A stretch of DNA of 64,000 bases from Nitrosopumilus sp. (lineage in GTDB: Archaea; Thermoproteota; Nitrososphaeria; Nitrososphaerales; Nitrosopumilaceae), in contig OZ244650.1 of the NCBI GenBank assembly GCA_965218785.1, positions 1,408,001 to 1,472,000 on the forward strand. Reading direction: 5' to 3'. The notes beneath the pieces were generated by a model. It did not search any database. It had not been told where the DNA came from and worked only from the letters and a program-made list of their open reading frames with translations. Position numbers and translations under genes: made by a program. Numbering within the stretch: position 1 is the first letter of the stretch; every line of letters begins with the position of its first letter. Below are positions 38,562 to 55,700 of this stretch, one piece after another.

Positions 38562-39515
38562 TCAAATCTTTCTTATTCGTTGAGATCTAGCTCCTGGTAT
38601 ATCAATTTTATATCTACCATCGCCCAATACCTCAAACCATTCCAACAACACCTGCACATTCCCAGCCAATTCTCGCCTACTTGGCACTGGAACATCTGTA
38701 CAATTATTCTGAATCCATTCCTTGATTCTTCCAAAGTACGCCTCTGGGGCTATAAACTCGTCAATCTTTTGGATAAACGGATGTACAAAAAACTTGATAG
38801 ACAGTTCCTGCAGAAATTCAGTCTCTGAAAGCCCTGTTGCAATCCCATAGTTTATCAGATCATAAAACACACATGCAGTAGTCTCAGGATTCTCCGAGGG
38901 ATTCTGACTAGAGCCAATTCTTTTGTATCCCAAAACCAGATCATCCACGCTACGGGTCATGGGTAATGCAGATATCAGAAAATTGTCACGTTTTGCCGCA
39001 GATACGATATCCTTCAAGTCAACCTGCTCTGGCGGTTTCACCTTGTTTGCCTCACTCCATTTTTCAAGCTCCTCATACATTACATCATCTACCAGTCTTG
39101 CTTCTTTTCGTATCTTCTCAAAATAGAATCGATCCTTGTTTGTCAGATATTCAATTAGTGTTGCTACCTCATAGTTGCCATCAGGTAAAAGCCCCCTATG
39201 TGAGATATTCCCGGTAGCAAGTATTGCACTGGCAAGACCCATGGAATACACCTTGAGATGCATGTCTTCACTCACATACAACGAAATATTCCGTTCCCTA
39301 CAGTACGGATACAGAGCAAGCTCAGATGATCCAAACTGGATGTCTCTTGGCTTCCATGTAGTGACTATTACAATTCTATTTTGTATATCTTTTAGTAATT
39401 TTTCCAACACCTTTGTCTTGACATACGGGACAAAAAGGAATATCGTCTCATCGGGATTATTCTCAAAGTATTTTCTGATGTGATCAAACAGAGGATTGTG
39501 ATAAATCTCGGTCAA
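38562..39515 (-). CDS. Phospholipase D-like (HKD variant) nuclease-domain protein
   Basis: 'FVPYV', 'MHLKVY', 'ATGNIS.RGL', 'NYE' fit a single HxK...GN PLD nuclease module, with the canonical Asp absent. The C-terminal domain is unknown. Confidence 0.72.
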   Translation of the reverse strand: MTEIYHNPLFDHIRKYFENNPDETIFLFVPYVKTKVLEKLLKDIQNRIVIVTTWKPRDIQFGSSELALYPYCRERNISLYVSEDMHLKVYSMGLASAILATGNISHRGLLPDGNYEVATLIEYLTNKDRFYFEKIRKEARLVDDVMYEELEKWSEANKVKPPEQVDLKDIVSAAKRDNFLISALPMTRSVDDLVLGYKRIGSSQNPSENPETTACVFYDLINYGIATGLSETEFLQELSIKFFVHPFIQKIDEFIAPEAYFGRIKEWIQNNCTDVPVPSRRELAGNVQVLLEWFEVLGDGRYKIDIPGARSQRIRKI

Positions 39516-39521
39516 TTCAAT

Positions 39522-40448
39522 TCATCCATAATTTGGAAATCTTTCCTTTATGTATCTGAATTGATCCCTTCCGTCTAGTTTCTCTGCCCTAGGAGTGGGG
39601 CCTCTCACATAGAATGTCTTTTGTTTTGAGGAATGAACATAAAGTGGCTGCTTTGAGGGCAATATCTGGATAATACAAATGATCTTGTCATCGATGTTCT
39701 TGAATCCTATCTGCAATTTGCTTGTGATGAACACTTTATCCTCTAACATATCCCCAAGCCTGTTTCGCATATTATTTGCAAACGAATCATCATAGTCTAG
39801 AAACCCTCCGAATTTCTTGTCTTTGTCCAGTCCTGCAATTGTGCCATCGGACTTTATTCCCAGATACACAAATCCTCCCTTGTAATCATTTCCAAAAGAA
39901 CATACTGCCGTAGCAAATCTCTCTAGCACAGAACGCTTTATGCCGTCTAAGGTTTGTCTATTTTCATTGGATGGTAATTCAGATAATTTTTCATCGTACT
40001 GATAAAATTCTTTAAATTCGTTGTACTTGTTCTCATTCTTTGGTATCTCTTTTTTGTCCAAATCTATGAATCGGGGGGCAGCTGTTCCTTTCATCACTTT
40101 GATATTTTTGACTTCTGTTTTTTGGCTCCATTCCTGATGGTTTTTTCTTCTGGTTTCAACAGCTTTTTTAGCTATATTCGACAGCTCTTCTTTTGATTTA
40201 GTTCGTATACCTATTGATTTATCTGAAATGGATTCGGTGGTATTTCCTTGGGTATCTTCAATGCTTTTGACGCGTCCGATCTGACCGTCCTGCAACCTAA
40301 CCATTATTCCGTGAGGATGTGAGCTACTCGAGGTCAAGATCTCACCAACTATGCCGCTTGTAAGGTTTTCAGTTCCCTGATTCTCCTTGGTCTCAATTGA
40401 AACATAATTGCTTTTTTTGATTTGTTCTCTAGTGGGCAAAACAACCAT
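39522..40448 (-). CDS. YwbE - Schlafen/AlbA_2 domain fusion protein
   Basis: Residues ~1-70 are a close paralogue of the YwbE at 35183-35398. The C-terminus has 'EN.YNEFKE', 'AVCSFGN..KGGFVYLGIKSDG' and 'FYVR', typical of AlbA_2. Confidence 0.8.
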   Translation of the reverse strand: MVVLPTREQIKKSNYVSIETKENQGTENLTSGIVGEILTSSSSHPHGIMVRLQDGQIGRVKSIEDTQGNTTESISDKSIGIRTKSKEELSNIAKKAVETRRKNHQEWSQKTEVKNIKVMKGTAAPRFIDLDKKEIPKNENKYNEFKEFYQYDEKLSELPSNENRQTLDGIKRSVLERFATAVCSFGNDYKGGFVYLGIKSDGTIAGLDKDKKFGGFLDYDDSFANNMRNRLGDMLEDKVFITSKLQIGFKNIDDKIICIIQILPSKQPLYVHSSKQKTFYVRGPTPRAEKLDGRDQFRYIKERFPNYG

Positions 40449-40910
40449 GATTATTCAAGATGATTTTCAAATTTAAGTGATGATTAATTCCATATGATAA
40501 TCTAATTGTCACGTATTGTTTATTTAGTGTGTGAGAAATCTGAAAGAAACATTTTCTAGATGATTATCAGATCGTGAGATCTGCGTATTTTTTATCAACG
40601 CTGAAATCTGATTTTTGGAACTTTAAGAAAAATACGTGCAGATATAGATACGGTGGTAGATGGTCGATATGTCAAGATACTGATATGTCACATATACTAT
40701 TTAACAAAGCATGCTCGAGTAGGGTGATGTGTCAATTCATAACACATCAATTCATGGCAATTAGATCCTGCCATGCTTATAATGATAAATATTTTACATG
40801 TTTCAATATACACAGTAATAAGATCGTTTTATTTTCGCATACAAAACCCAATCAATGAAATGGGTGATTCTCATATACTATATTAATAGGTATTATAGGT
40901 ATTTGATCTT

Positions 40911-42665
40911 GTGAGTCAATACAATCAAGAATCCCGTGAATCAATATCTTCTGAATTAGCGGCAGGGGCGTTTGCTAAAGCCGGTTTCAAAATTGATTCT
41001 GCCATATGTGAAATCGTAGATAACGCAATAGAAGCAAATGCAAAAAACATCATCATAAGATTTGAATGGACTGAAAAATCCTACACTAAAATACGAAAAA
41101 GAGTGGAGAAATTTATTTTCATTGATGATGGTGAGGGTATGAATGATCGAATAATTTATGATTATTTCATAGCTGCAGAATCTACAAAAAAGAATAACAC
41201 ATCAGGTATTGGAAAATTTGGATTAGGTGCTTATATGTCATGTATAAGTCAGGCAAAATGTGGTGAAGTCTATTCAAAAACAGAAGGCGGTAAATGGATG
41301 TATACGATTTTAAGATTTGGTAAAAAAATCCCAAGACCAGTATTACGAGAACCACCAGAAGAATATAGAAGATATGATCACGGAACAATTGTGATCTGGT
41401 CGGATATAACAAATCCATCATTTAAAGACAAAGATATTGTGGATAAAGAAAAAAACCATCAAGATAATGATCAAGAAGAAGAAGAAGACACAGTAGATTA
41501 TGAACCAAAATTAATTGACGAGTTGGGAAGGATTTATAGAAAATTTATTGGGGATAAAAAAAGCGTACCAGCTAACGATGGCTCAAAGACAATTAATAAT
41601 GAAAATAAAATCAAAATAATTCTAGAATTAGAAGATGAAGATCCTATAGACGTCATGCCTTATGATCCACTGTTTATTTCATATGATCAAAATAATGATA
41701 AACCAAAAATTATTTCTCAACGTGTTAAACTAGATACAGGAGATCAAGTTGGCTGGATGGTAATTACATATTCCTATTATCCGGATAACTGGTTGTATGG
41801 ATATCGACCGGGATTATCACATGAGAATCGAATTATACGTAAAATTACTGAAAGAAATCAGGGAATATCTTTAGTTCGTGAAGGTAGAGAACTATATTTT
41901 GGAAATTGGCCAGGAGGACCAATAAAGATTTTAAATGCAAATCAAAGTCCCAGTAACAATCAACATTTTGATAAAGTAGACAGATGGACAGGAATTGAAA
42001 TTGAATTTACTAGAGAATCTGATGATATTTTTGGTGTAGAATTTAATAAAACACGAATACGAATGGAGCGTTTTGCTAGAAGAAAAATTTCTGAGGCCAT
42101 CAGTCCTACAATAATTAAACGACGAAATTATTTTAAAGAAATACGCGATAAGGAAAAAGCAAAAATAGGTGAAACTAAATCCCAAGGATCTGGAGGTACA
42201 TCACGAATACAACCCACAATCTCTACATCAAAACACGATGATGCTACCAAAAAACGTCTAAGGGAGTTTGCAGAAAGATACAAAGATGCTAGTGAAAAAA
42301 CAGAAGATGTATTCAACGATCTGTTGAAGGGTTTTCACATTAGTTTAAGTCATGATCTTGATTCCAAAGGACCTCTAATTTCGTACGAATCCGAAGCAGA
42401 TAGTGTGTTAGTAAAATACAACATGGCTCATTCATTTATACGTGATTTTTTTGAGATATTAGAAAAAATGGAAAACACCGAACAGGAAGACAATATGTTG
42501 AAGATTCGGGAACATTTTGACATATTGTTGGCATCATATGGTTTTGCAATAAAATCAATTCACGATACTACAAAACAACAAGACATTCAAACCACGATTG
42601 ACTATTTGATTTCAAATTGGGGAGTATCAGCTCGCAGATTATCTAACATGAAACCAGATGAGTGA
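40911..42665 (+). CDS. MORC-like GHKL ATPase
   Basis: N-box 'AICEIVDNAIEA', G1 'IDDGEGM', G2 'GIGKFGLG', G3 'HGTIVIW', and an S5-like region 'GISLVREGREL...IEIEF....DDIFGVEFNK'. Confidence 0.85.
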   Translation: MSQYNQESRESISSELAAGAFAKAGFKIDSAICEIVDNAIEANAKNIIIRFEWTEKSYTKIRKRVEKFIFIDDGEGMNDRIIYDYFIAAESTKKNNTSGIGKFGLGAYMSCISQAKCGEVYSKTEGGKWMYTILRFGKKIPRPVLREPPEEYRRYDHGTIVIWSDITNPSFKDKDIVDKEKNHQDNDQEEEEDTVDYEPKLIDELGRIYRKFIGDKKSVPANDGSKTINNENKIKIILELEDEDPIDVMPYDPLFISYDQNNDKPKIISQRVKLDTGDQVGWMVITYSYYPDNWLYGYRPGLSHENRIIRKITERNQGISLVREGRELYFGNWPGGPIKILNANQSPSNNQHFDKVDRWTGIEIEFTRESDDIFGVEFNKTRIRMERFARRKISEAISPTIIKRRNYFKEIRDKEKAKIGETKSQGSGGTSRIQPTISTSKHDDATKKRLREFAERYKDASEKTEDVFNDLLKGFHISLSHDLDSKGPLISYESEADSVLVKYNMAHSFIRDFFEILEKMENTEQEDNMLKIREHFDILLASYGFAIKSIHDTTKQQDIQTTIDYLISNWGVSARRLSNMKPDE

Positions 42666-44356
42666 CTAATCTGATATTAAACCGCTATCTTCCTCAAATA
42701 CAATTAGAAAAGAGCTTAGATAAAGTTAATTTTGATAATCTAGAGTTTATCTTACAACACTACAAAGATATCCAATCAATTTACACAGAAAAATTGATTT
42801 TAGGTCAAATTCATTTTTCAAAAAATTTGCCGAATTATTTAAAAAAATCATTTCGAAAAAAACTCTATAATTATACAAAATCTACAATAGCTGCACAATG
42901 GGAGCGTTATTTTAAAAAATGTGGAATTACTAAAAATATTTCAAAAATGAATGAAAAAGAATATTCAGATATGATGAAACAATGTATTGAATTTGATTGG
43001 AAGCAAGATGAACAAACAAAATTATTTGTCAATTTTTTCAAATATCCTGAATATATAATCCCAGATGACAAAAAAGAATTAAAAACATCTATAGATGTCT
43101 ATGGTACAAATGCTGAATTTGAGCCTTTGAAAATATTACTTGATTATCAATCGAAGATAGTTTCAAAAACTATGAAAAAAATTGAAAATGTTAATTCTAC
43201 ATGTTTGATACAAATGCCGACAGGAACAGGAAAAACAAGAGTTGCAATGGAAATAGTCTCTCGGATATTTAATAAAACTCCAGACATACAAATAATATGG
43301 TTTGCAAATAAATCTGAATTATTAGAACAAGCCTATGAGTCTTTTATGCATGTGTGGAATCATGTGGGGAGATTTCCAATAAAATCTATTGTGGCGTGGG
43401 GAAAAAAACAAATTCCAAAAATTCCAGATAAACGTGTTATTGTTTTTGCAGGTTATAAAAAAATGAATAATTTTTCAAAATCAAATTTACTAAAACCATC
43501 TTATGTCATTATAGATGAAGCTCATCAAATTTTAGCTCCCACATATGATGATGTATTAAAAAAACTAACAGATAAGAACGCAGCAAGGATACTGGGTCTA
43601 ACAGCCACTCCTGGAAGAGGTATTGATGAGAAGCAAAACCAGTTACTAGTTAAAAAATTTCAGGGCAACATTGTTCAGATTGAATTAGATAGGGATGATG
43701 GAAAAAAATATGAAAAAAATATTATAAAATATTTAGAGCATAACGATATCCTAGCTAAATCAGAATTGAATCCACTTAGAACAGATTTTAAATATCAATT
43801 AACTAGTACCGAATTAGATGCATTGGTAAAAATTATTCAAGGTGACCGACAGGAATTTAGCACTGAAATGCTACAAAAACTAGCAAATAACAATACTAGG
43901 AATATACAAATAATTGATAAATTACACAAATTGGCAAATCATGGTAAAAAAATTCTTTATTTTAGCACTAGTAAAAATCAATCAATTTTAATCCATATAG
44001 TTTTACAACAATTAGGGATTAATTCTGCACATGTAGATGGAGATACAGATTCTGTTTTTAGAAGGCAGATTATTCGAAAATTTAAAGAGACAGATCAAAT
44101 ACAAGTAATTTGTAATTATGATGTATTTAGTACTGGATTTGATGTGCCAAATCTAGATGTCGTGTTTATAGGAAGACCAATTAATTCCCCTGTACTGTTT
44201 AATCAGATGGTTGGGAGAGGAACAAGAGGCATTAGTATGGGTGGAAAAAAATCATTCATACTTGTACAGGTAATTGACAAGTTTAAATCTGCACGGATGT
44301 CATTCTCACCATATGAACAATATGGATATTGGGATGATAATTGGAAAAATAAATAG
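42662..44356 (+). CDS. Superfamily 2 (ResIII/DEAH-like) helicase
   Basis: 'QMPTGTGKT', 'IIDEAH', 'GLTATP', 'STGFDVP', 'QMVGRGTR'; 4-bp overlap with the MORC gene. Confidence 0.9.
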   Translation: MTNLILNRYLPQIQLEKSLDKVNFDNLEFILQHYKDIQSIYTEKLILGQIHFSKNLPNYLKKSFRKKLYNYTKSTIAAQWERYFKKCGITKNISKMNEKEYSDMMKQCIEFDWKQDEQTKLFVNFFKYPEYIIPDDKKELKTSIDVYGTNAEFEPLKILLDYQSKIVSKTMKKIENVNSTCLIQMPTGTGKTRVAMEIVSRIFNKTPDIQIIWFANKSELLEQAYESFMHVWNHVGRFPIKSIVAWGKKQIPKIPDKRVIVFAGYKKMNNFSKSNLLKPSYVIIDEAHQILAPTYDDVLKKLTDKNAARILGLTATPGRGIDEKQNQLLVKKFQGNIVQIELDRDDGKKYEKNIIKYLEHNDILAKSELNPLRTDFKYQLTSTELDALVKIIQGDRQEFSTEMLQKLANNNTRNIQIIDKLHKLANHGKKILYFSTSKNQSILIHIVLQQLGINSAHVDGDTDSVFRRQIIRKFKETDQIQVICNYDVFSTGFDVPNLDVVFIGRPINSPVLFNQMVGRGTRGISMGGKKSFILVQVIDKFKSARMSFSPYEQYGYWDDNWKNK

Positions 44357-44456
44357 CATTACATATTTGACATGATGAAGATGCTTAGTCAAATTCGTCT
44401 GATTCTTACAACATAGACACAATTCAAATATTTTATTGTAGAAAATTTTTTAAATT

Positions 44457-45620
44457 TTACACGTGAATTTTGATCAGGGAATCCACACATGAACAAATCT
44501 CATCTGTTGCTGTTTCGATATCTTCACTGGTATTGAATCTGCCACAACCAATTCGTATAGAAGAATGAGCTTGTTCTTCATCCAATCCAAGTGCAAGCAA
44601 TACGTGGGATGGCTCTACTGTCTGGGTGGTACATGCCGAACCAGCAGAGATGGCAATCTTTTTGGATACTGAATTGATTATTGCCTTGCCGTCTATTCCC
44701 TCAAATCTCACATTGAGATTGTGTGCCAGCCTCTTTGTGGGATGACCGTTAAGCTTGCCACCAGCATCTGATAACTGTTTGAGCATCTCATCAGTCCATT
44801 TTTTGAATTTGACATTCTCTGATCCCATCTCCTTTTGTGCAATCTCTACTGCCTTTGCAAAGCCCACGATTCCGGGAACGTTCAGTGTACCGGGTCGGAG
44901 ATTTCTTTCCTGACCTCCACCATGAATAATGGGTTCCAGTTTTACCCGGGGCATGATACTTCTAACATAGAGCGCACCGATTCCCTTGGGACCGTAAATT
45001 TTGTGTGATGAAAACGACATTAAATCAATGTTCATTTTTTGAACATCAATTGGGATATGACCCACTGCCTGTGCAGCATCAGTATGAAACAGTACATTAC
45101 GCTCGTGTACAATACTTCCAATCCCTGCAATATCCTGTATGGTGCCAATCTCGTTGTTTGTAGACATTATCGAGATCAGGACGGTCTCATCTGTGATTGC
45201 ATTCTTTAACTCTTGCAGATTTACCAGTCCGAATTCATCCACGGGAAGATATGTTACCTGGAATCCTGCCTCTTCAAGATGTCGTGCGGTATCAAGTACT
45301 GCCTTGTGTTCTGTAACACATGTGATCAAATGATTCCCCTTTTTTCTGTTTTTTTCCATTACTCCAATCAACGCCAGATTATCAGATTCTGTGGCACCGG
45401 ATGTAAAGAGTATCTCATCCATGTGTGAGCCTATTACCTTTGCAATTTTTTCCCGAGCCTGCTGCACTGCAACTGACGCATCATATCCTACAGAGTGATC
45501 AAGACTAGATGCATTGCCAAATTTTTCAGTAAAATACGGTGTCATCTCCTCAAATACACGCGGATCCACCGGAGTGGTCGCATGGTAATCAAGGTATATC
45601 GGAAATTTATTTTCTGCCAT
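44457..45620 (-). CDS. dndA: Cysteine desulfurase DndA (IscS-like)
   Basis: 'YLDYHATTP', 'FTSGATE', 'SSHKIYGPKG', 'SAGSAC'; located directly after dndE. Confidence 0.88.
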   Translation of the reverse strand: MAENKFPIYLDYHATTPVDPRVFEEMTPYFTEKFGNASSLDHSVGYDASVAVQQAREKIAKVIGSHMDEILFTSGATESDNLALIGVMEKNRKKGNHLITCVTEHKAVLDTARHLEEAGFQVTYLPVDEFGLVNLQELKNAITDETVLISIMSTNNEIGTIQDIAGIGSIVHERNVLFHTDAAQAVGHIPIDVQKMNIDLMSFSSHKIYGPKGIGALYVRSIMPRVKLEPIIHGGGQERNLRPGTLNVPGIVGFAKAVEIAQKEMGSENVKFKKWTDEMLKQLSDAGGKLNGHPTKRLAHNLNVRFEGIDGKAIINSVSKKIAISAGSACTTQTVEPSHVLLALGLDEEQAHSSIRIGCGRFNTSEDIETATDEICSCVDSLIKIHV

Positions 45621-45716
45621 GTTTTACAACTCTCTTTTTTAATTGATAAACACACTCTAGAACTGAATATTTTTTTGGAATACCACATACCGTATAATCA
45701 ATAATTTTTTGAATCC

Positions 45717-46097
45717 TCATCCCATCCTCTCCTCCCTTACAAGATTGTAAAAATCAGCAAGATTTCTAATTCGCAGCCTCAGTGATATCACCCCGCGATT
45801 CAGATGCGCCCGCAGCATACGATTAAGGTAGATTCCCGGATCAAGCTTGTCATGTTTCAATCTGTTGAGCAAGAGTGCCTCGTAGACTCGTTCATTTTTT
45901 CCAAACAGTACATGTGGTACGATTACCGAGCCGTCCTGATTGTACTCATCAGGATTTGGAATGGATCTCTCCTTGAGTGACAGACATATTGCAAACCTAG
46001 ACAGGGTTTCAGGCTCCAGACCCATCTCTGTTCTCATATCCCCCAGATTCTTCTGACTCCGAGTACTCATTCTCATCGTCTCAAACTTTGATTGCAT
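45717..46097 (-). CDS. dndE: DNA sulfur modification protein DndE
   Basis: 126 aa; 'LSRFAICLSL', 'LFG', 'RAHLNRG'; overlaps dndD. Confidence 0.88.
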   Translation of the reverse strand: MQSKFETMRMSTRSQKNLGDMRTEMGLEPETLSRFAICLSLKERSIPNPDEYNQDGSVIVPHVLFGKNERVYEALLLNRLKHDKLDPGIYLNRMLRAHLNRGVISLRLRIRNLADFYNLVREERMG

Positions 46098-48111
46098 GAC
46101 TCTCCTCCAGTTTAAAGTAACCCTCCTCGATCATGGTTCTGCCTTTCTCCGAGTCGTATCTTAGTATGTACGATTTTGCAATGTGTGGAACCAATTTCTC
46201 ATAGTACCTGTCATTTATCTCAGAATCCGTAGAAAGTATTATGGTCTGGTGCGATGCGGCAGGATAAAAATTCTCTACCATGTTTGTCCTGTGTTCCCTG
46301 TCAAGTCTTGCAAGTGGCGTGTCAATCACAAATGGAAACGCCCTGCCTGAGGTCTTTGCAAGTCCCCACACCAGGGTAGTGACATACATCTGAATCTCAC
46401 CTTCGGACATCATTGTCCTTGTTATCTCCTCGCCATCTTGCTTGTACAGTTTGATCTCAAAAGTTTCAGGATCAATGGTTACACTTTCAATAAAGTCCTT
46501 TTTGTGTAAAAGCATCTTTATCCCGTCTAGTATGTATTTTTGCAAAATCTCAATTTTTTTGCGTCTAAGAACAACAGAGTATTCCTCCAATGTCTCCTGT
46601 ATTGCCGGTCCCAGGTCTACTCCGGCAGTCAGTCTTCTGTCACTGCCTCTCTTGCTTATGTTTTGACGTATTCGTGAATTAAGTAATGTAATCATGGATT
46701 TTTCCTGCGCCTCCAAATTCATCAGATTCTCCAGCTCGCTTTCAAGCTCTCCAAGCTTCCGGTTGGTATGTGCAATTTCAGATAATGCGGGTCCTGCCTC
46801 GTCGTCCTGCGGTGACATTTCAAGACCATTCCTTACAATTTCCAGCTTGTCTAGTATCTTGTTGTGTGACTGTGCAAGCTCTTTAATCCTCGGCTCACAT
46901 GATTCGTTGATCTCATTTATCATATTTTTGATGCGCTCCATCTCTGAGAGAGAAAGATCAAAAGTTGTATTTTGTAAATTATGAATTGTGTCCTTTCGCT
47001 TTTGTAACGTTTGCTCTATCTCTGATACAAACATCGCTTTTGTAGAATCATCACATGAATGAAGAAATGAATCAGACTGTATCGTCTCTAGTATGTCATC
47101 AAATGCCTTTTCAAGAATGTCCCGTTCAAAGTTGTCTTTTATCCTTTTTTCATCCTGTTCTATGTCTAGTCTTAACTCTTCTAGCTGGTCAGGTATGATG
47201 CTCATTGGCAGTGTGTCCGAGCACATCTCCCTGATCTTTTTTTGAACCGTCTCAATCTCTGCCTCCATCTTTGATTTTCTGGCAACAAACTCCTCACGGT
47301 TTTTTGCAAACTCTCCGCCTATCTTTGAGAAACGCTCCTCAAGTACACGGATCTTGTACTGGATGCTAGTTATCTGCGCCTTGATGCTCACCTGTTTTTC
47401 CAGTATTCTCTCCAGCCTGTTATCGGCATTGGTTTTTTCTGCCGTTTGTTGCTGTATCTCTTCAAGAATCTTTTGCGTCTGGCCATCAGAGTTTCTCAAA
47501 AGATACACGCCAATATCATCACGGAGTTGCCTTACCAAATCTAGTCCCAAAAGCACATCAAATGATTCCTGGATGTATTTCTGCTCGTCTCCGGCAGTTG
47601 CAATATCTCTGATGTGCTCGCCATTAATGAAGAAGAGTCTCGCAATTCCAACAGGCATCATCTGGTCGATATATGACTGCCAGCCGGACTTTTCTACGGA
47701 ATCCAGTCGGGTGTACTGTCTCTCTGCATCCTTTTTGTATACTGAAAAATCCTCTTGTATACTGCCATCGATATTTTCCCATGATCTTGCCACGCGATAT
47801 TCTGATATTACTCCCCTGTGGGCAAACTCAAACTCTACTGTAATTGATGCCTCTTGTGCAGGTACATGTACTGATGTAGATCGGTGAATCAGCCTTTGCA
47901 TCTTCTCATCGTACTGTTTCTGTGACATCTTTTGTTCAAATGACTGCCGTCCGTAAAGGCACAGCAATATGGACTCAAACACCGTGGTCTTGCCTGCCCC
48001 GTTTGTACCGCCATACAGCACAACTGGTTTTTTTGGCGCGGTTTTAAAATCAAGTTTGTTGACTCCCCCGTACACTCCAAAGTTATCAAGTGTGACCCTA
48101 GTCAGAAGCAT
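46081..48111 (-). CDS. dndD: DNA sulfur modification SMC-like ATPase DndD
   Basis: 'LDNFGVYGG', Walker A 'GTNGAGKT', 'LFFINGE', coiled coil, 'MSEGE', 'IDTPLARLD..HR', 'ILSTDSE'. Confidence 0.93.
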   Translation of the reverse strand: MLLTRVTLDNFGVYGGVNKLDFKTAPKKPVVLYGGTNGAGKTTVFESILLCLYGRQSFEQKMSQKQYDEKMQRLIHRSTSVHVPAQEASITVEFEFAHRGVISEYRVARSWENIDGSIQEDFSVYKKDAERQYTRLDSVEKSGWQSYIDQMMPVGIARLFFINGEHIRDIATAGDEQKYIQESFDVLLGLDLVRQLRDDIGVYLLRNSDGQTQKILEEIQQQTAEKTNADNRLERILEKQVSIKAQITSIQYKIRVLEERFSKIGGEFAKNREEFVARKSKMEAEIETVQKKIREMCSDTLPMSIIPDQLEELRLDIEQDEKRIKDNFERDILEKAFDDILETIQSDSFLHSCDDSTKAMFVSEIEQTLQKRKDTIHNLQNTTFDLSLSEMERIKNMINEINESCEPRIKELAQSHNKILDKLEIVRNGLEMSPQDDEAGPALSEIAHTNRKLGELESELENLMNLEAQEKSMITLLNSRIRQNISKRGSDRRLTAGVDLGPAIQETLEEYSVVLRRKKIEILQKYILDGIKMLLHKKDFIESVTIDPETFEIKLYKQDGEEITRTMMSEGEIQMYVTTLVWGLAKTSGRAFPFVIDTPLARLDREHRTNMVENFYPAASHQTIILSTDSEINDRYYEKLVPHIAKSYILRYDSEKGRTMIEEGYFKLEESHAIKV

Positions 48112-49534
48112 CTTTTTTCACTCCGTCAAGTTCTACGCGGTCACGTACAAGCTCGCCCATTATTTTGTCTGCATCATCCCTCCATTCCTTTATGAGTTCT
48201 TTTCGTATCTTTCCAAATATTTTAGAGTGTGATGTGGCGCCCTGCATCTCAAATTCTGCGTTAAGCAGGCTGCTTACCAGCCTGTATGGGATGTTGCGTT
48301 TCTTGCAGACTGTTTGTAAAAGCTGTTGTTCCGTGCTGCCAAATCCTCCCATGTCTTCTGAATCTTCTTCGAGTCTTTTTCCTATGACATTCTCATAGAT
48401 TTGATATGCAGAGTTTCTCCAGTCCCCCTGTTCCATGCGCCAAATCCGCTGAATCTCGTGAATCTCCTCGTCTAAGATCAGTGTCATGTTGGGGTCTGGC
48501 CCCTCCTTTTGTATCTTCAACTGTCCGCGCAGCAGTTTTTCCAGATAGTCCTTTCTAAACTCCATCTTGTACGGGCCGGGAACATAGTCGTTACTGTCTT
48601 TTCTAAGCTCGACCTTGCCGTTTCTCCTAGTCATCTCCCGTACATCTTCCCACACATTGGAATCCTGGGTTTTTTTGAGCTCCTCTCGCAACTCTGCAAG
48701 TGTCTCCATCCATTCCTCCCCGTTTTCAATTAAACTGGTAAGTGACTTTTGCTTGTCAACTACGGTACATGTCCAGCATCCGAACCGTCCGCTGCCACAT
48801 GATGGCGTACTTGTATCAACTACCAATGGACATTCTGCTGCATTGGCATCCTGATACAAAGAAAGAAGATCCCGGTTGTTGTCCCCCCACGGATTCTTGT
48901 TTTGTAATAGATAATTCCATACATCTTCGGCAGTAAAGTCCACCAGCGGCGTATACACGTATGTCTGGGCAAATCGCTTGTGATGGGATAGTACACTGTT
49001 TTCAATCTCCAGCATGTTCATGCTTTGTTGTCTGGTGCTGCTCTCGCTTTTTCTTGTTCCCAAAAGCACGATTGCCTCGCCATACTGTGAGACCTTTTCC
49101 TGGATGAATCTGTCTGCATTGGCAATCTTGAGCATGTCAGTGCACCATCGAAACATGGACGTGGGTGCAGGATAGCCAAGACCCAGGATTCTTACCCAGA
49201 ACGTATCTGAGATCTTGGGTCTTAGAAGATTGGTGGATATTGGAAGATGTGAGTTTGTTGTTGCTGCCTTTTCTATCTTATCTAGGCTGGTTGTAATCCT
49301 CTCCACTATCTGTGGGGATTCTACTAGTGTGTCCGAAGATATTATGTATATCTTTTTTTGCAGCTTTTCTGCAGGTAATTTGGATAATGCATGCCATGCA
49401 AGCTGTGCCATGCACGTGGAATCCTTGCCACCGCTGAATCCTATGATCCAGGGCCTGTTGTCGTTGAGATACACCTGGCGGATCTCCTCGTAAATGTCTG
49501 CCAAAGTCCTTTGATCAAAAACAGAATCAGTCAT
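48098..49534 (-). CDS. dndC: DNA phosphorothioation sulfurtransferase DndC (PAPS reductase family)
   Basis: 'PWIIGFSGGKDST', 'DTLVE', 'GYPAP..FRWCT', 'ECPLVVD..TPSCG..RFGCWTC'. Alternative start at 49543. Confidence 0.95.
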   Translation of the reverse strand: MTDSVFDQRTLADIYEEIRQVYLNDNRPWIIGFSGGKDSTCMAQLAWHALSKLPAEKLQKKIYIISSDTLVESPQIVERITTSLDKIEKAATTNSHLPISTNLLRPKISDTFWVRILGLGYPAPTSMFRWCTDMLKIANADRFIQEKVSQYGEAIVLLGTRKSESSTRQQSMNMLEIENSVLSHHKRFAQTYVYTPLVDFTAEDVWNYLLQNKNPWGDNNRDLLSLYQDANAAECPLVVDTSTPSCGSGRFGCWTCTVVDKQKSLTSLIENGEEWMETLAELREELKKTQDSNVWEDVREMTRRNGKVELRKDSNDYVPGPYKMEFRKDYLEKLLRGQLKIQKEGPDPNMTLILDEEIHEIQRIWRMEQGDWRNSAYQIYENVIGKRLEEDSEDMGGFGSTEQQLLQTVCKKRNIPYRLVSSLLNAEFEMQGATSHSKIFGKIRKELIKEWRDDADKIMGELVRDRVELDGVKKDASD

Positions 49535-50630
49535 GGTTTTCAAACTCCTCTCTTTGTGGGGATAATGTAATGCCGCATTTTTTCAGAATTAGATTTGCTG
49601 CACGCTCGATTCCAAGCGCGTGTTTTACCATCTGTCCGTTTAAGATCAGACGCCCGTCCCATTCCGGATTGTCCCTTGACCAGTCGATCTTTTTGAGATT
49701 GACGAGTTTCTTATCCCATCTGTCTGGAAACTCTTCGATGAGAATATTTCCAGCTATTCCTAACGCGTTTAACAGATTGGTGTTTGTATGGACAAATTCT
49801 TTTCTTACCTCGTTTGGTTTTACTTTTCCCTGCATTAGAAGCTGCCACTCCGGCATGTTTGTTGCGACAGTATTCCAGAATTTTTCCACGGTTTCTTTCT
49901 CGGCTTTTGTAATTCTCTTCTTTTTGCGTGTGCCAAATAGACGCATTGTCGCATCGGCAATCCCGTTTAATGTGAATACTGTTTTAGAACGGTTTGAGAT
50001 GGTGGTTTTTTCCAGTTCTACCCTGTCTACAAAGACATCTACAATTCTAACAAGCTCGACGATAAACTGGGAAAATTGATCCCTGTAATCATACAAAATG
50101 TTGAGGGATTTTGTGGGTTTTACTGCATTTTTGTTCAAATCCGAGAACATCTGCTGGCTTCGTTTCAGTCCCGAATCCTGAAAAAATACTACGGATATCA
50201 TCTCGTATCCAAGTTTTGGATTCTCCTTAAGTGCTTCCTCGATTGCCTTTCTTCTGTGTTGTCCATCATTTATCAAAAGTTTGGAATCCATGTTTATGTA
50301 AATACGACCGACCTTGGCGTCTGGTCCAAGGGATGGTACTGGGATAAACTTCATCGCACCGTCAACTGATGCCGTAAGTGAGGAGAATGTATAGTCATCC
50401 GGATTTGACAGGATGTAGTCCTTTATGGCAGGTATTCTTGATTCTCGTAGAGTCCTCTGGGCTCTTAGTTCCGGAGGTAGTTCATAATCATTAAAGATGA
50501 ATAATTTTGGGATTATCTTTAACGGGCATATTGCAACATAAAACTCCCGCCCTGCCTGAATTCCACGTATTGCATCAAATCCGTAAGTCTCACTGCCTAC
50601 AGATTCCTCATTTAACGAGTCATTCGCCAT
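49527..50630 (-). CDS. dndB: DNA sulfur modification protein DndB (DGQHR domain)
   Basis: 'AIRGIQAGREFY', 'RAQRTL', 'INDGQHRR', 'QQMFSDLN'. Confidence 0.93.
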   Translation of the reverse strand: MANDSLNEESVGSETYGFDAIRGIQAGREFYVAICPLKIIPKLFIFNDYELPPELRAQRTLRESRIPAIKDYILSNPDDYTFSSLTASVDGAMKFIPVPSLGPDAKVGRIYINMDSKLLINDGQHRRKAIEEALKENPKLGYEMISVVFFQDSGLKRSQQMFSDLNKNAVKPTKSLNILYDYRDQFSQFIVELVRIVDVFVDRVELEKTTISNRSKTVFTLNGIADATMRLFGTRKKKRITKAEKETVEKFWNTVATNMPEWQLLMQGKVKPNEVRKEFVHTNTNLLNALGIAGNILIEEFPDRWDKKLVNLKKIDWSRDNPEWDGRLILNGQMVKHALGIERAANLILKKCGITLSPQREEFENHD

Positions 50631-52728: not shown

Positions 52729-55700
52729 CTAAAGTCCAAACAGGGACTGGAACCAGTCTACAATCTTCTCAAAGACATTACGATCGTCTGCTGGTTCTGG
52801 ATCTTTTCGTATGGATTCTGGATCCATTTCCACTGGTTCTGGATTCATGGGGGTTAGTTCTGGATTCATGGGTACTGATTCTGGATCCATTTCCACTGGT
52901 TCTGGATCCATTTCCACTGGTTCTGGATCCATTTCCACCGGTTCTGGATTCATCCCGTCTGCAGGCTCGGGTTTGTCATCCTCTCCCGATGTTACAGTAA
53001 TGCCATATGTCTTGTCACCGTGCGAAGATAGGATTATTCCACGGTTGTCCTGTAAGAACATGGTAAGACTGCCTGAGAACTCTTCTTCAAATGGTATTAC
53101 TATACTATCAAAACGCTTTGTGGTTTGATCACCGGATTCAGTGTAGTATACCTGTGTCTCAGATAGGATTGAGGAAGAATCACAGGCATAAAGACGGTCT
53201 GACTGGTATTCCTTGCCACTGCATTTGTCATATGTAAGAATATTTGGAATCAACATGTATTGTATCAGGGCGGCGGCCGGAAGTTCCGGTGTTGTGTGAT
53301 CCGAGATGATGATCTCCATCTTTAGGATTTTCTGGCGTATGTCAATGGGCAGTATACGTGGTGCTATTGTAAGTGATGTGTCAGATTCAAGTGTTATCTG
53401 TGATGGACCTGTCAATGCGTTTGCTCCGTCGGATGTAAAGATGAAGGACAGGTCGTATGGTGAACCTCTGCTGGTGCCATCACTGCCACCACCGCCGCCA
53501 CCGCCTCCGCCACCGCCGCCACCGCCGCCACCGCCGCCACCGCCGCCACCGCCTCCTCCGCCACCGCCTCCTGACCTTCTAGGAGCAGGTTCTGGTGTTG
53601 GTTCGGGTTCTGGTTCAACAACGACCGGTGGTGGTGATACCAGATTTGAGCCAAATACTGTAAAGTGTGTAGTCCAGATTATCAGGTCACTGCTAGTGTT
53701 TATGAAGCACTCTCCGGTGCCTTCAAGCTGCTCTGAGACAGGGGTAAGATCATCGGCAGTACACGCTGTAGTTATCTGGGTAGCTGCTTCACCACTCTCA
53801 GAATACCATGGAACGTTGCCTGCCTGGTCTCCAAGCTGTATCCGTATTGGATTATCAGTGTTTATCACAGAGTCTGCTTGCCCTATCTCGATGCAGGATG
53901 CCTGCGCACCAGAGGTTATTGCAGCAGAGTTACAACCAGTGTCAGAGTCAGTGTCAGTTGGCAGAATCAGTATTCCATCAAAGGTAGAAGAGCTAAAACT
54001 GGTGGTGGCAGGGATTGTCACCTGGACGTTTCCTCCACGCAGACCTGTTGCAGTTACTACAATCTGATTGTTTGTCGTAACAGCAGGAGATACTGCTTCT
54101 TCGTCTAGCAGTGATGAATAATCCAGTGTGGCATCGACTGTACTTTGATATCTGATTGTGGCAAGGGTGGAAGCAGGATCAGTTACTGCGATGCGGTTGT
54201 CAGTACCGGCAAGTATGATGTTGTCTTCTGCTGTTACCGGATAGAGACTACCTTGTGGGATCACAAGTGATGGGTCTGATGTCCTTGTTGGACCAGTTAC
54301 GCTGATTGTGACAGTGATTCCGGCTGAGATCTCTGATTCGAGGGTAAGTGATATGGTGTTAGGCGGAGTACTGCTAGCAATTGAGTTTATTTCAGGTGGT
54401 GTGGATCCGTCAGATAAAGTCAACGTATAATCGGTGCTAACAGTAGTTACAGGTACGTTGTAGATTATGGTGATTGTATCAGTGGAGAGTCTTGCAGATA
54501 TTATCTCAGGTATTGCAGTATAGACGATGTTCAGTGATGCTGTATCAGCTAGTGCGGGGGAGTCAGATACGGTGATGGCGCCCATGCCAGATATGGTGTC
54601 AGAGATTGCCGGAGAATCAGAGAGGGCAAGGGAGATCTGGATTGATGCCGTATCAGCTAGTACGGGGGAGTCGGATCCTGTGATGGTGCCCATGCCAGAT
54701 ACGGTGTCAGAGATTGCTGGAGAATCAGAGAGGGCAAGGGAGATCTGGATTGATGCCGTATCAGCTAGTACGGGGGAGTCAGATACGGTGATGGCACCCA
54801 TGCCAGATACGGTGTCAGAGATTGCTGGAGAATCAGAGAGGGCAAGGGAGATCTGGATTGATGCCGTATCAGCTAGTACGGGGGAGTCGGATCCGGTGAT
54901 GGTGCCCATGGTCTGCATGTCTGATTCATCAGATATGGCAGGTGTGTCAGTGTGGGTAATGTGCAGTTCCAGTGATGCCGTATCAGCTAGTACGGGGGAG
55001 TCGGATCCGGTGATGGTGCCCATGGTCTGCATGTCTGATTCATCAGATATTGCAGGTGTGTCAGTGGCGGTAATAAAGAATTTCAGTGATGCCGTATCAG
55101 CTAGTACGGGGGAGTCAGATACGGTGATGGTGCCCATGGTCTGCATGTCTGATTCATCAGATATTGCAGGTGTGTCAGTGTGGGTAATGTGCAGTTCCAG
55201 TGATGCCGTATCAGCTAGTACGGGAGAGTCTTTTTCTGAGATGTAATTTATCATTTGAATGTCTGATTCATCAGATATTGCAGGTGTGTCAGTGTGGGTA
55301 ATAAAGAATTTCAGTGATGCCGTATCAGATATGACCGGAGAGTCAGATGGAGTAAGAGCGCCCATGGTCTGCATGTCTGATTCATCAGATATGGCAGGTG
55401 TGTCAGTGTGGGTAATGTGCAGTTCCAGTGATGCTGTATCAGATATTGTCGGAGAGTCAGATGGGGTAAGAGCACCCATGGTCTGCATGTCTGATTCATC
55501 TGATATGGCAGGTGTGTCAATGGCGGTAATGTGCAGTTCCAGTGATGCTGTATCAGATATTGTCGGAGAGTCAGATGTTTCGATGCTGCCCATGCCAGTT
55601 ATTACATCTGATATGGCAGGTGTGTCAATGGCGGTAATAAAGAATTTCAGTGATGCTGTATCAGATATGACCGGAGAGTCAGATGGAGTAAGAGCGCCCA

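What the first reader, a model, noticed from the sequence alone, without database searches (positions are those of the whole stretch)
38562..50630. Archaeal dndBCDEA phosphorothioation locus paired with a non-canonical MORC + helicase / Schlafen + PLD module
Seen: a complete dndB-C-D-E-A cluster on the minus strand ends 100 bp from a translationally coupled MORC-type GHKL ATPase plus SF2 helicase pair on the plus strand. That pair is divergent from a YwbE-AlbA_2 fusion and a PLD-like nuclease gene, which lie 6 bp apart. No DndFGH, PbeABCD or SspE-like genes are recognisable in the window. Established: DndACDE install phosphorothioate (PT) marks, the characterised partners are DndFGH in bacteria and PbeABCD in haloarchaea, and prokaryotic MORC ATPases often sit with restriction-modification genes. 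Inference: these four genes may be an undescribed PT-dependent restriction or abortive-infection module in an ammonia-oxidiser-like archaeon. MORC and helicase would scan or translocate, and the PLD DNase and/or Schlafen RNase would act as effectors. It may be a reduced relative of the MORC/Z1/AIPR/helicase ('Mza'-type) neighbourhoods, with Z1, PD-(D/E)XK and AIPR genes missing here.
Basis: partly seen in the sequence, partly recalled or inferred. Interest (0 to 1): 0.9.

Follow-up and report, generated by a model that had tools for sequence, protein, structure and literature searches.

The report
Nuclease cassette that accompanies DNA-sulfur modification genes
Next to a complete set of genes that put sulfur marks on the DNA backbone, this ammonia-oxidising archaeon carries a four-gene ATPase, helicase and nuclease cassette that recurs beside both known kinds of sulfur-marking genes in archaea and bacteria, so it is probably an undescribed cutting partner of that marking system.

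Summary
The window holds dndB-C-D-E-A (minus strand). Beside it lie a MORC-like GHKL+S5 ATPase overlapping an SF2 helicase by 4 bp, and a YwbE-AlbA_2 fusion 6 bp from a PLD (HKD) nuclease with a winged-helix tail.

The new result is comparative. This cassette is conserved and lies beside phosphorothioate (PT) modification operons of either kind, dnd or sspABCD.
- Among loci with a MORC+helicase pair and at least 5 kb of flank, PT genes were present in 8 of 8 (species genomes), 12 of 16 (metagenome contigs) and 19 of 20 (same archaeal family).
- In Bradyrhizobium and Streptomyces records the order is sspB-C-D-helicase-MORC-PLD on one strand.
- In 401 genomes of the family, all 28 with the PLD gene also have dndC or sspD, against 43 of 373 without it.

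No model of DndFGH, SspE, PbeABCD or Mza fits the four proteins above cut-off, and SspFGH as published differs. No paper found links MORC/GHKL to dnd or ssp.

Caveats: the same genome has a second dnd cluster beside a full PbeA/PbeC cluster about 70 kb away, so dnd is not orphan here. The window's cassette looks recombinant, with a low-GC MORC+helicase pair. PT dependence and mechanism are inferred, not shown. Verdict: a probable new restriction partner for PT systems.

The parts
38562..39515 (-). PLD (HKD) nuclease with a C-terminal winged-helix-like DNA-binding domain, 317 aa
   Evidence: H86, K88, N103, G108 and E116 are invariant in 22/22 homologues. Model pLDDT 90.9. Residues 1-153 match SauUSI Z 17.5, Nuc 14.6, BfiI 14.6, R.NgoAVII 11.9. 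Residues 175-317 match N.BspD6I 7.5, ArsR-type wHTH 6-6.8, BrxA 6.5, FokI 6.3, SspB 5.7; these Z values are middling. 90% identical to the copy in G343.
39522..40448 (-). YwbE (DUF2196) domain fused to an AlbA_2/Schlafen-type domain, 308 aa
   Evidence: Pfam DUF2196 76.6 bits and SLFN_AlbA_2 38.9 bits. NCBIfam YwbE 76.3 bits against cut-off 63.4. E139, E144, K146, N187, G191, G192 and R282 are invariant in 15/15 homologues. Found in 15 of 39 metagenome and 13 of 20 family loci that hold the MORC+helicase pair.
40449..40910 (.). Divergent intergenic region between the YwbE-AlbA_2 and MORC genes, 462 bp, GC 0.30
   Evidence: Coordinates, sequence, GC. The 94-aa ORF inside it (40574-40858) has no match in Pfam, PADLOC or NCBIfam and is probably not a gene.
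40911..42665 (+). MORC-like GHL ATPase (GHKL + S5-type transducer + helical C-terminal region), 584 aa
   Evidence: HATPase_c_3 57.6 bits. The profile's best solved relatives by sequence are MORC4, MORC3 and MORC2, E from 3.9e-6, over the GHKL part only. Model pLDDT 79.7. Residues 12 to about 415 match MORC3 Z 20.8, SMCHD1 20.8, GRP94 19.7, MORC2 18.7, TopoVI-B 17.6, MutL 17.3. GC 0.332 against a genome value of 0.406.
42662..44356 (+). SF2 (RadD/Res/Rad25-type) helicase-translocase with an unassigned N-terminal region of about 150 aa, 564 aa
   Evidence: ResIII 95.5, Helicase_C 67.5. Q163, P186-T192 (PTGxGKT), D285-E286-x-H288 (DEAH in the window), A315-T316-P317 and Q515/G518/R519/R522 are invariant in 30/30 homologues. 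Best solved relatives by sequence are RadD 2.8e-48 and SauUSI 4.8e-30. PbeA model 78.1 bits over the helicase part only, positions 194-613 of 672. GC 0.287.
44457..45620 (-). dndA, cysteine desulfurase
   Evidence: PADLOC DndA 560.6 bits; Aminotran_5 293 bits.
45717..46097 (-). dndE
   Evidence: PADLOC DndE 128.7 bits; Pfam DndE 65.9 bits.
46081..48111 (-). dndD, SMC-like ABC ATPase
   Evidence: PADLOC DndD 560.1 bits.
48098..49543 (-). dndC, PAPS-reductase-like PP-loop ATPase
   Evidence: PADLOC DndC 594.3 bits. TIGR03183 501.5 bits, over cut-off, at this place in the genome.
49527..50630 (-). dndB
   Evidence: Pfam DndB 412.6 bits; PADLOC DndB 482.2 bits.

Best explanation
The region holds an intact dndBCDEA phosphorothioation operon. 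Beside it is one member of a conserved cassette that accompanies PT-modification operons, either dnd or sspABCD, in Nitrosopumilaceae. The helicase-MORC-PLD core of that cassette also occurs in bacteria.

I read the cassette as the restriction arm of a PT-based defence system, an ATP-dependent nuclease machine:
- The SF2 helicase translocates on DNA.
- The MORC-like GHL ATPase dimerises or clamps on DNA and gates the reaction.
- The single-HKD PLD protein binds DNA through its winged-helix tail and cuts as a dimer.
- The PT marks written by Dnd here, or by Ssp elsewhere, tell the machine self from foreign. Most likely they spare marked DNA, as with DndFGH and SspFGH.
- The YwbE-AlbA_2 protein is an accessory, either a regulator or a back-up nucleic-acid effector.

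Shown: gene content, folds, intact catalytic motifs, and the conserved linkage to PT operons. Inferred: complex formation, DNA cleavage, dependence on PT and its direction, and the accessory role.

In this genome the cassette looks recombinant. The PLD and AlbA_2 pair is of the lineage seen beside ssp. The low-GC MORC+helicase pair is of the lineage seen beside dnd.
For: 1. Conservation. The order YwbE-AlbA_2(-) | MORC, helicase, PLD (+) | dndA-E-D-C-B (-) recurs in L017, L023, L026, L032, L033, L036, L037 and L041, with partial copies on shorter contigs.

2. Linkage to PT genes. Among loci with a MORC+helicase pair and at least 5 kb of flank on one side, PT genes lie in the locus in 8 of 8 species-genome loci, 12 of 16 metagenome loci and 18 of 20 family loci. 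The family figure becomes 19 of 20 after L142 was extended.

3. Both PT systems. The neighbours were identified as SspC (957-985 bits), SspD 364.7, SspB 299.8 and SspA 434.7. On the helicase tree of 56 rows the dnd/ssp label needs at least 3 changes.

4. Operon fusion in bacteria. The order is sspB, sspC, sspD, helicase, MORC, then a 305-aa gene on one strand in L004 (Bradyrhizobium). L012 (Streptomyces) holds the same helicase-MORC-305-aa trio next to a divergent ssp operon. The 305-aa gene is a PLD homologue by hhalign: probability 99.1, E 4.6e-19, and 98.9, E 9.9e-18.

5. Genome level, 401 genomes of the family. The PLD gene is in 28, dndC in 64 and sspD in 27. All 28 PLD-positive genomes have dndC or sspD, against 43 of 373 PLD-negative ones.

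6. Competent parts. The HKD motif, the SF2 motifs and the GHKL boxes are all invariant. The folds are PLD-nuclease and GHKL+S5.

7. Analogues. The closest fold of the PLD and the second-closest solved relative of the helicase are both SauUSI, a PLD+helicase restriction enzyme. PbeA, a known PT partner, is an HKD nuclease fused to an SF2 helicase.

8. Modification readers. Longer relatives of the PLD protein carry extra C-terminal domains. One has an EVE domain at 23.3 bits against a cut-off of 23. Others have a sub-threshold Mrr_N winged helix.
Against: - No experiment or read data bear on PT marks or restriction here.
- The same genome has a second dnd cluster next to a full PbeA-PbeB?-PbeC-PbeD? 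cluster and HNH genes. So the window's dnd need not depend on this cassette, and a known partner type is present.
- Some cassettes have no PT gene in the DNA available. L061 has 10 kb upstream and 3 kb downstream. L045 and L046 have 10 kb upstream. L047 has 4 kb upstream. L152 is an 11.8-kb contig.
- In 23 metagenome loci with less than 5 kb of flank, only 8 show PT genes. This may simply reflect their length.
- In the family most PLD-positive genomes with dndC carry it far from the cassette, which sits beside ssp instead. Linkage to dnd specifically is therefore the minority case: 5 of 29 places.
- Dnd and Ssp write different PT patterns according to the papers read. One reader serving both needs explaining.
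- MORC and helicase in the window have foreign GC, 0.33 and 0.29 against 0.41. They are only 22-29% and 28-38% identical to those that accompany the window-like PLD elsewhere. The four window genes may therefore not be a co-adapted set.
- Related genomes are not independent samples.
Confidence: 0.55

Rival explanations
1. The cassette is a PT-sensing system of the SspE kind. PT marks on host DNA stimulate it, rather than block it. Its nuclease then nicks or cuts incoming DNA, or foreign DNA carrying other modifications, in an abortive or Type IV-like manner.
For: - The best structural match of the PLD domain, and a strong match of the helicase, is SauUSI, a modification-dependent Type IV enzyme.
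- Long forms of the PLD protein carry reader-like domains: EVE at cut-off and a weak Mrr_N.
- SspE is reported to be activated by PT (passages read).
- HNH genes and SspE-like DUF262 genes sit in the same loci.
Against: - The window's own PLD protein lacks the extra reader domains.
- The winged-helix tail matches sequence-recognition domains of FokI and N.BspD6I only at middling Z.
- Nothing in the sequence tells activation from protection.
Confidence: 0.2
2. The cassette is a self-contained ATP-dependent restriction or abortive-infection system that needs no PT. It lies next to dnd and ssp only because defence genes gather in islands and travel together.
For: - MORC plus SFII helicase plus nuclease operons were predicted as restriction systems with methylases or alone (passages read).
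- L061, L045, L046 and L047 show no PT genes in the DNA held.
- The window's MORC and helicase have foreign GC and seem to have been swapped in.
- Other defence genes (Pbe, HNH, Fic, DUF262) lie in the same part of the genome.
Against: - No methyltransferase was seen as the conserved neighbour. The conserved neighbours in the clustering of 28 family loci were the ssp and dnd genes.
- The core is fused into the ssp operon in bacteria.
- 28 of 28 PLD-positive genomes have a PT system, against 43 of 373 PLD-negative ones.
- The linkage holds in Pseudomonadota, Actinomycetota and Nitrososphaerota.
Confidence: 0.15
3. The cassette does not restrict. It services PT-modified DNA, by analogy with MutL, UvrD and MutH. 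It would load or regulate the modification machinery, or process nicks and oxidative damage at PT sites.
For: - The MORC-like protein shares its two-domain fold with MutL (Z 17.3), and the helicase's best solved relative is the repair helicase RadD.
- GHL ATPase plus helicase plus nuclease is the make-up of mismatch repair (discussed in the passages read).
Against: - 43 family genomes have dndC or sspD without the PLD gene, so modification does not need it.
- The patchy distribution (12 of 27 genera), the foreign GC and the swapping between dnd and ssp are the habits of defence genes.
- The PLD-plus-DNA-binding-domain architecture is that of restriction enzymes such as BfiI and R.NgoAVII.
Confidence: 0.06

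Closest known systems
PbeABCD (PT-linked system of haloarchaea)
   Same: It is linked to dnd. Its effector PbeA combines an HKD nuclease with an SF2 helicase (passages read). The window's helicase matches the helicase part of the PbeA model at 78.1 bits.
   Different: Here the nuclease and the helicase are separate genes. The nuclease carries a winged-helix tail. The ATPase partner is a MORC-like GHL protein, not the CxC-type ABC ATPase PbeC. There is no DndE-like PbeD. A true PbeA/PbeC cluster exists elsewhere in the same genome.
DndFGH and SspFGH
   Same: They are three-gene restriction partners of dnd or ssp that damage DNA lacking PT (passages read).
   Different: There is no homology. TIGR03236/7/8 and the PADLOC DndF, DndG and DndH models gave 0 hits in the genome. 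SspF and SspH are described as Walker-A and FtsK-like proteins, not GHKL, SF2 or PLD.
SspE
   Same: It is a partner of SspABCD. SspE-like DUF262 genes (PADLOC HEC-06/Orf5/SspE models) lie in some of the same archaeal loci.
   Different: SspE is a single DUF262 protein. None of the four window proteins matches it.
MORC + SFII helicase restriction-type operons predicted by Iyer, Abhiman and Aravind 2008 (PMC2292703)
   Same: A GHKL+S5 ATPase sits next to a Rad25-like SFII helicase, in a few cases with an HKD nuclease domain (passages read). This is the kind to which the cassette's core belongs.
   Different: That paper pairs them with DNA methylases and does not contain the word dnd: 0 occurrences, and its one 'sulfur' hit is a genus name. 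Here the modification partner is PT machinery, the HKD nuclease is a separate gene, and a YwbE-AlbA_2 gene is attached.
CglI/NgoAVII and SauUSI (PLD nuclease working with an SF2 helicase)
   Same: The PLD domain resembles R.NgoAVII (Z 11.9) and SauUSI (Z 17.5). The helicase resembles SauUSI (E 4.8e-30). In CglI/NgoAVII the nuclease (R) and the helicase (N) are separate proteins that need each other (title and abstract seen in the listing).
   Different: Those systems have no GHL ATPase, and they use or target methylation, not PT.
Mza (MzaABCDE)
   Same: MzaB is a GHKL ATPase. It is the only defence model that the MORC-like protein touches.
   Different: The score is 24.8-28.4 bits against a curated cut-off of 850, over the GHKL box only. 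The bacterial relatives score 54.1-71.5 bits. No Mza model other than MzaB matched any of the ten proteins scanned.
DISARM
   Same: It has a helicase, a PLD protein (DrmC) and a modification gene. The PLD proteins touch DrmC models weakly: E 0.0073 in the window and 1e-7 in L004.
   Different: No DrmA or DrmB (DUF1998) model matched. No methylase was seen among the conserved neighbours.

Membership tests
Dnd phosphorothioate modification system (DndABCDE) | All five proteins DndA, B, C, D and E are present as one cluster | tested here: met
   PADLOC gives 560.6, 482.2, 594.3, 560.1 and 128.7 bits. The ORFs are contiguous on one strand.
Dnd phosphorothioate modification system (DndABCDE) | DNA actually carries PT marks | not testable with these tools
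   This needs iodine cleavage, LC-MS/MS or suitable sequencing.
DndFGH restriction module | DndF, DndG and DndH homologues are present | tested here: not met
   0 hits in the whole genome (97% complete) with TIGR03236/7/8 and PADLOC DndF, DndG and DndH. For five of the six models the control genomes did not ring either.
PbeABCD | PbeA is an HKD nuclease fused to an SF2 helicase | tested here: not met
   The window helicase covers only positions 194-613 of the 672-position model, at 78.1 bits. The PLD is a separate gene.
PbeABCD | A CxC-type ABC ATPase (PbeC) and a DndE-like PbeD lie in the module | tested here: not met
   None lies among the four genes. The PbeC hits in the window are dndD itself. 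A true PbeA (584.6 bits) and PbeC (287.2 bits) lie at C1:1371470-1376472, outside the window.
SspE | DUF262 (GmrSD_N) N-terminal domain | tested here: not met
   No SspE or GmrSD_N match in the four proteins. The genome's GmrSD_N hits are at C1:102905 and C1:62540.
Mza | MzaB equivalog score, plus the other Mza proteins | tested here: not met
   28.4 bits against a cut-off of 850. No other Mza model matched.
MORC / GHL ATPases | GHKL ATP-binding domain with conserved N, G1 and G2 boxes | tested here: met
   HATPase_c_3 57.6 bits. D37, N38, D72, G74, G76, G99, G101, G104 and G106 are invariant in 40/40.
MORC / GHL ATPases | S5-fold transducer domain following the GHKL domain | tested here: met
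   The model aligns over residues 12-408 with MORC3 (Z 20.8, 296 residues, rmsd 3.6) and over 12-418 with MORC2 (Z 18.7).
MORC / GHL ATPases | Belongs to MORC proper rather than to paraMORC or another GHL family | tested here: inconclusive
   MORC4, MORC3 and MORC2 are the best solved relatives by sequence, but at E 3.9e-6 to 8e-4 and over the GHKL part only. In fold, MORC3 ties with SMCHD1 (both 20.8) and is close to GRP94 (19.7).
PLD/HKD nuclease superfamily (Nuc-like) | HxK...N catalytic motif and the PLD fold | tested here: met
   H86, K88 and N103 are invariant in 22/22. SauUSI Z 17.5, Nuc 14.6, BfiI 14.6. Pfam PLDc_2 matches only below cut-off in relatives, and at cut-off in P0125 (27.3 against 27).
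SF2 helicases (Res/RadD/Rad25 type) | Q motif, Walker A, DEAH box, motif III and motif VI | tested here: met
   The motif residues are invariant in 30/30. ResIII 95.5 and Helicase_C 67.5 bits.
Schlafen / AlbA_2 | AlbA_2 domain present | tested here: met
   SLFN_AlbA_2 38.9 bits against a cut-off of 25.3; 43-53 bits in L027 and L030.
Schlafen / AlbA_2 | Catalytic carboxylate triad of Schlafen RNases | tested here: inconclusive
   E139 and E144 are invariant and D221 nearly so. That these correspond to the Schlafen triad is my recollection, not a tool result.

The most novel reading that the evidence does not exclude
Helicase-MORC-PLD, with YwbE-AlbA_2 added in archaea, is a fifth and so far unnamed class of restriction partner for DNA phosphorothioation. 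It is unlike DndFGH, PbeABCD, SspE and SspFGH. It is used interchangeably with the double-strand (Dnd) and single-strand (Ssp) PT systems from Nitrososphaerota to Actinomycetota and Pseudomonadota. This would imply a reader of the PT backbone mark itself, and a prokaryotic MORC that acts on an epigenetic backbone mark.
Probability: 0.45. Interest if true: 0.85.

Novelty: new variant of a known kind. Interest (0 to 1): 0.72.

Why it matters
According to the papers read here, most dnd and ssp clusters have no known restriction partner. Only 7.3% and 7.4% of 2,678 sspBCD modules were found with sspFGH or sspE. DndFGH is decoupled from most dnd clusters.

A conserved helicase-MORC-PLD cassette tied to both PT systems would fill part of that gap. 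It would give a testable function to prokaryotic MORC ATPases, the relatives of eukaryotic chromatin silencers. It would also point to a defence system in marine ammonia-oxidising archaea, whose virus defences are little known.

The bacterial versions in Streptomyces and Bradyrhizobium make the idea testable in tractable hosts.

Tried and rejected
- Complex prediction on helicase (A3) plus PLD (A2) gave no verdict: score 0.00, mark 0.32, controls not run. This counts neither for nor against binding.
- Mza membership was considered and rejected.
- SspFGH identity was considered and rejected from the paper's own description.
- DISARM was considered. Only weak DrmC matches were found.
- The 94-aa ORF at 40574-40858 has no family match and I treat it as spurious.
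- I tried to name the precomputed domain PF26348.1 on long PLD forms. It is not in the local Pfam copy. P0088 has no solved relative by sequence; the best E is 0.2. I recall it as an SRA-like domain of ScoMcrA-type enzymes, but that is untested recollection.
- The C-terminal domain of the PLD protein was searched only as part of the whole model. A sulfur-binding domain did not appear among the 50 rows shown, which does not exclude one.
- The N-terminal 150 residues of the helicase and residues 420-584 of the MORC-like protein remain unassigned.
- L040 (a 955-aa helicase joined to a penicillin-binding domain) looks like an assembly chimera. It was kept out of the alignments and the tree.
- For the tree I left out incomplete ORFs, ORFs longer than 1.3 times the query, and identical duplicates.
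- Supplementary data of PMC10853773 and PMC8092258 could not be read. They may list neighbourhoods that include these genes.
- I did not run DefenseFinder, any read mapping, or the search of protein representatives.

Full report
**1. What is in the window**

On the minus strand lie dndB (49527-50630), dndC (48098-49543), dndD (46081-48111), dndE (45717-46097) and dndA (44457-45620). All have strong PADLOC and Pfam matches. For example, DndC scores 594.3 bits and DndB 482.2 bits.

Convergent with dndA, 100 bp away, ends an SF2 helicase gene (42662-44356). Its start overlaps by 4 bp the stop of a GHKL ATPase gene (40911-42665; HATPase_c_3 57.6 bits).

Divergent from that pair, across 462 bp, lies a gene for a YwbE/DUF2196 domain fused to an AlbA_2/Schlafen-type domain (39522-40448). 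It is followed after 6 bp by a 317-aa gene (38562-39515) that no Pfam model names.

The genome is 1.99 Mb in 2 contigs and 97% complete. It encodes archaeal AmoA at 392 bits, so the host is an ammonia-oxidising archaeon.

**2. The four proteins**

*PLD protein.* In an alignment of 22 homologues, H86, K88, N103, G108 and E116 are invariant. A model with mean pLDDT 90.9 has two parts.
- The N-terminal domain matches PLD-type nucleases: SauUSI Z 17.5, Nuc 14.6, BfiI 14.6, NucT 14.3, R.NgoAVII 11.9. Foldseek agrees.
- The C-terminal part (residues 175-317) resembles winged-helix DNA-binding or recognition domains, but only at middling Z: N.BspD6I 7.5, ArsR-type 6-6.8, BrxA 6.5, FokI 6.3, SspB 5.7.

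This is the build of PLD restriction enzymes: one HKD half-site plus a DNA-binding domain.

*GHKL protein.* It has invariant ATP-binding boxes in 40 homologues. Its best solved relatives by sequence are MORC4, MORC3 and MORC2. A model (pLDDT 79.7) aligns its first 415 or so residues, both the GHKL and S5-type domains, with MORC3 (Z 20.8), SMCHD1 (20.8), GRP94 (19.7), MORC2 (18.7), TopoVI-B (17.6) and MutL (17.3). 'MORC-like GHL ATPase' is therefore justified. Membership of MORC proper is not settled.

*Helicase.* It keeps every SF2 motif in 30 homologues. It is nearest to RadD and to the helicase part of SauUSI.

*YwbE-AlbA_2 protein.* It keeps E139, E144, K146, N187, G191 and G192 in 15 homologues. 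Whether it is a nuclease cannot be told from this.

**3. The cassette is conserved and tied to PT genes**

*Metagenome contigs.* The MORC-like protein has about 45 full-length relatives at 36-57% identity, almost all metagenomic. Scanning metagenome contigs with their alignment gave 80 loci. Mapping the window's ten proteins onto them showed one recurring order: YwbE-AlbA_2 (-), then MORC, helicase, PLD (+), then dndA-E-D-C-B (-). This order is seen in L017, L023, L026, L032, L033, L036, L037 and L041, with truncated versions on shorter contigs. In the window the PLD gene sits on the other side, behind YwbE-AlbA_2.

*Family genomes.* A search of 400 genomes of the same family with the PLD profile found full-length copies in 27 of them plus the window's genome, in 12 of 27 genera. 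I fetched 20 kb, or the whole contig where shorter, around each of the 28 places. Clustering the neighbours brought out a second set of conserved genes. PADLOC identifies them as SspA (434.7 bits), SspB (299.8), SspC (957-985) and SspD (364.7). Counting the window, the 29 places divide as follows:

| Neighbour within the DNA held | Places |
|---|---|
| dnd genes | 5 (window, L139, L140, L151, L161) |
| ssp genes | 19 |
| No PT gene | 5 |

Of the 5 places without a PT gene, two are short contigs (L152, L160). Three are a diverged 430-444-aa PLD form in another context (L163-L165).

*Bacteria.* The distant relatives found in species-representative genomes behave the same way. All 8 of the 16 loci that have a MORC+helicase pair also hold sspB/C/D. 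They come from Bradyrhizobium (two), Micromonospora, Streptomyces, a Proteobacteria MAG, Nitrosopumilus (two) and a Nitrososphaerota MAG. In L004 the genes run sspB, sspC, sspD, helicase, MORC and a 305-aa gene on one strand. From the ORF starts and lengths printed there and, I compute a gap of about 10 bp between sspD and the helicase, an overlap between helicase and MORC, and a 3-bp gap before the 305-aa gene. That gene, in L004 and in L012, is a homologue of the PLD protein by profile comparison (probability 99.1 and 98.9).

*Totals.* Among loci with the pair and at least 5 kb of flank, PT genes are present in 8/8, 12/16 and 18/20. The last figure is 19/20 after L142 was extended.

*Genome level.* In the family sample, dndC is in 64 of 401 genomes and sspD in 27 of 401. 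All 28 PLD-positive genomes have one or the other, against 43 of 373 PLD-negative genomes. Of the 27 sspD-positive genomes, 22 have the PLD gene. These genomes are related, so the contrast is descriptive, not a test.

*Tree.* On a helicase tree of 56 rows, the dnd/ssp label needs at least 3 changes. The window groups with the dnd-linked contigs L017 and L018 at support 98.

**4. What is not there, and what is elsewhere**

No model of DndF, DndG or DndH hits the genome (most controls were silent).

The PbeA model, however, finds a full-length match (584 bits) at C1:1374340-1376472. Around it lie an HNH gene, a 62-aa ORF in the PbeB position, a PbeC (287 bits) and a 143-aa ORF in the PbeD position.

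Just upstream of that, at C1:1360688-1366832, is a second complete dndB-C-D-E-A cluster. It is 36-64% identical to the window's.

So this genome has two PT-writing clusters: one beside Pbe and one beside the MORC cassette. It also fits a picture of one partner per cluster. The genome has no intact ssp genes, only an SspC remnant.

**5. A recombinant cassette**

The window's PLD and YwbE-AlbA_2 are 90% and 72% identical to those of G343. There they form the same tail-to-head pair, and the locus is ssp-linked. G343's MORC and helicase are only 24% and 36% identical to the window's.

The window's MORC and helicase are closest to the dnd-linked metagenome type: 49% and 56% to L017.

Their GC is 0.33 and 0.29. 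The genome is at 0.41, PLD at 0.41, AlbA_2 at 0.39 and the dnd genes at 0.42-0.46.

The simplest reading is that the MORC+helicase pair was exchanged, or arrived with dnd, while the PLD/AlbA_2 pair is older in this lineage. Whether the present four genes work together is therefore open.

**6. Mechanism**

I commit to an ATP-dependent restriction machine governed by PT status. The helicase translocates, the MORC-like ATPase clamps and gates, and the PLD dimer cuts.

The grounds are as follows:
- The motifs are intact.
- SauUSI and R.NgoAVII plus its helicase are close analogues.
- PbeA, a known PT partner, is an HKD-helicase fusion.
- The operons are linked to PT-writing genes.

I judge protection by PT more likely than activation, by analogy with DndFGH and SspFGH.

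**7. Is it known?**

- The 2024 reappraisal of PT machinery (PMC10853773; outline, sections 17 and 24, and term searches read) lists HKD, HNH, REase, URI, HEPN and PIN nucleases in dnd neighbourhoods. Its main text contains no occurrence of MORC, GHKL, HATPase, MutL, Hsp90, PLD, Schlafen or AlbA.
- Iyer et al. 2008 (passages read) predicted MORC+SFII helicase(+HKD) restriction operons, but with methylases.
- Full-text searches joining PT terms with MORC/GHKL terms found nothing relevant. One search gave 3 unrelated papers. In one search none of the 25 papers listed (of 219 holding at least two terms) held both an Ssp term and a MORC/GHKL term. Searches also found nothing relevant.
- dndABCDE in ammonia-oxidising archaea is already reported (PMC6790972, passages).
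- PADLOC v2 and NCBIfam r20 hold no model that fits even the bacterial versions above cut-off.

I therefore rate it a new variant of a known kind: a new partner type for PT-based defence, built from a previously predicted MORC-helicase-nuclease core.

Noticed in passing
own genome C1:1360688-1377386 (outside the window; loci L167 and L108): A second complete dndB-C-D-E-A cluster, 36-64% identical to the window's. It is followed by two ParB-like genes, then on the minus strand HNH (305 aa), PbeA (711 aa), a 62-aa ORF, PbeC (695 aa) and a 143-aa ORF. A Fic gene and a split HNH gene lie nearby. GC of the Pbe stretch is 0.31.
   Followed up: partly
window 35183-35398 (-): A stand-alone 71-aa YwbE-family gene, 64% identical to the YwbE part of the YwbE-AlbA_2 fusion 4 kb away.
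   Followed up: partly
window 52729-63996 (-): A single open frame of 3755 aa starting at a GTG; its high (5') coordinate lies 4 bases from the window end, so the true start may lie beyond the window. Not examined.
   Followed up: no
own genome C1:1788391-1789365: A 90-aa remnant of SspC next to a homologue of the unnamed 190-aa gene ('c10') that lies between sspC and sspD in archaeal ssp loci. c10 has no Pfam or PADLOC match.
   Followed up: partly
L023:6614-8536, L033:10422-12338, L041:3961-5340; proteins P0084-P0128: Many relatives of the PLD protein are 440-820 aa long with extra C-terminal domains. These are a weak Mrr_N winged helix, an EVE domain in P0163, and a precomputed PF26348.1 whose name I could not read. 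The same extra domain also occurs in HNH proteins of the family.
   Followed up: partly
L002, L048, L077, L080: More distant MORC-like genes of Clostridia-type contigs lie about 4.5 kb from a Pbe-like set: PbeA- and PbeC-like genes with a desulfurase and a PAPS-reductase-like gene. They have no adjacent helicase of the window's type.
   Followed up: no
family survey: 20 of the 27 sspD-positive genomes of the family also carry dndC. The two PT systems often coexist in these archaea.
   Followed up: no
L040:1421-4288: A 955-aa frame joining the helicase to penicillin-binding-protein domains. It is probably an assembly chimera.
   Followed up: no
own genome C1:102674-103528 (-): A 568-aa GmrSD_N (DUF262) protein at 130.7 bits, a possible Type IV or SspE-like enzyme, far from both dnd clusters.
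   Followed up: no
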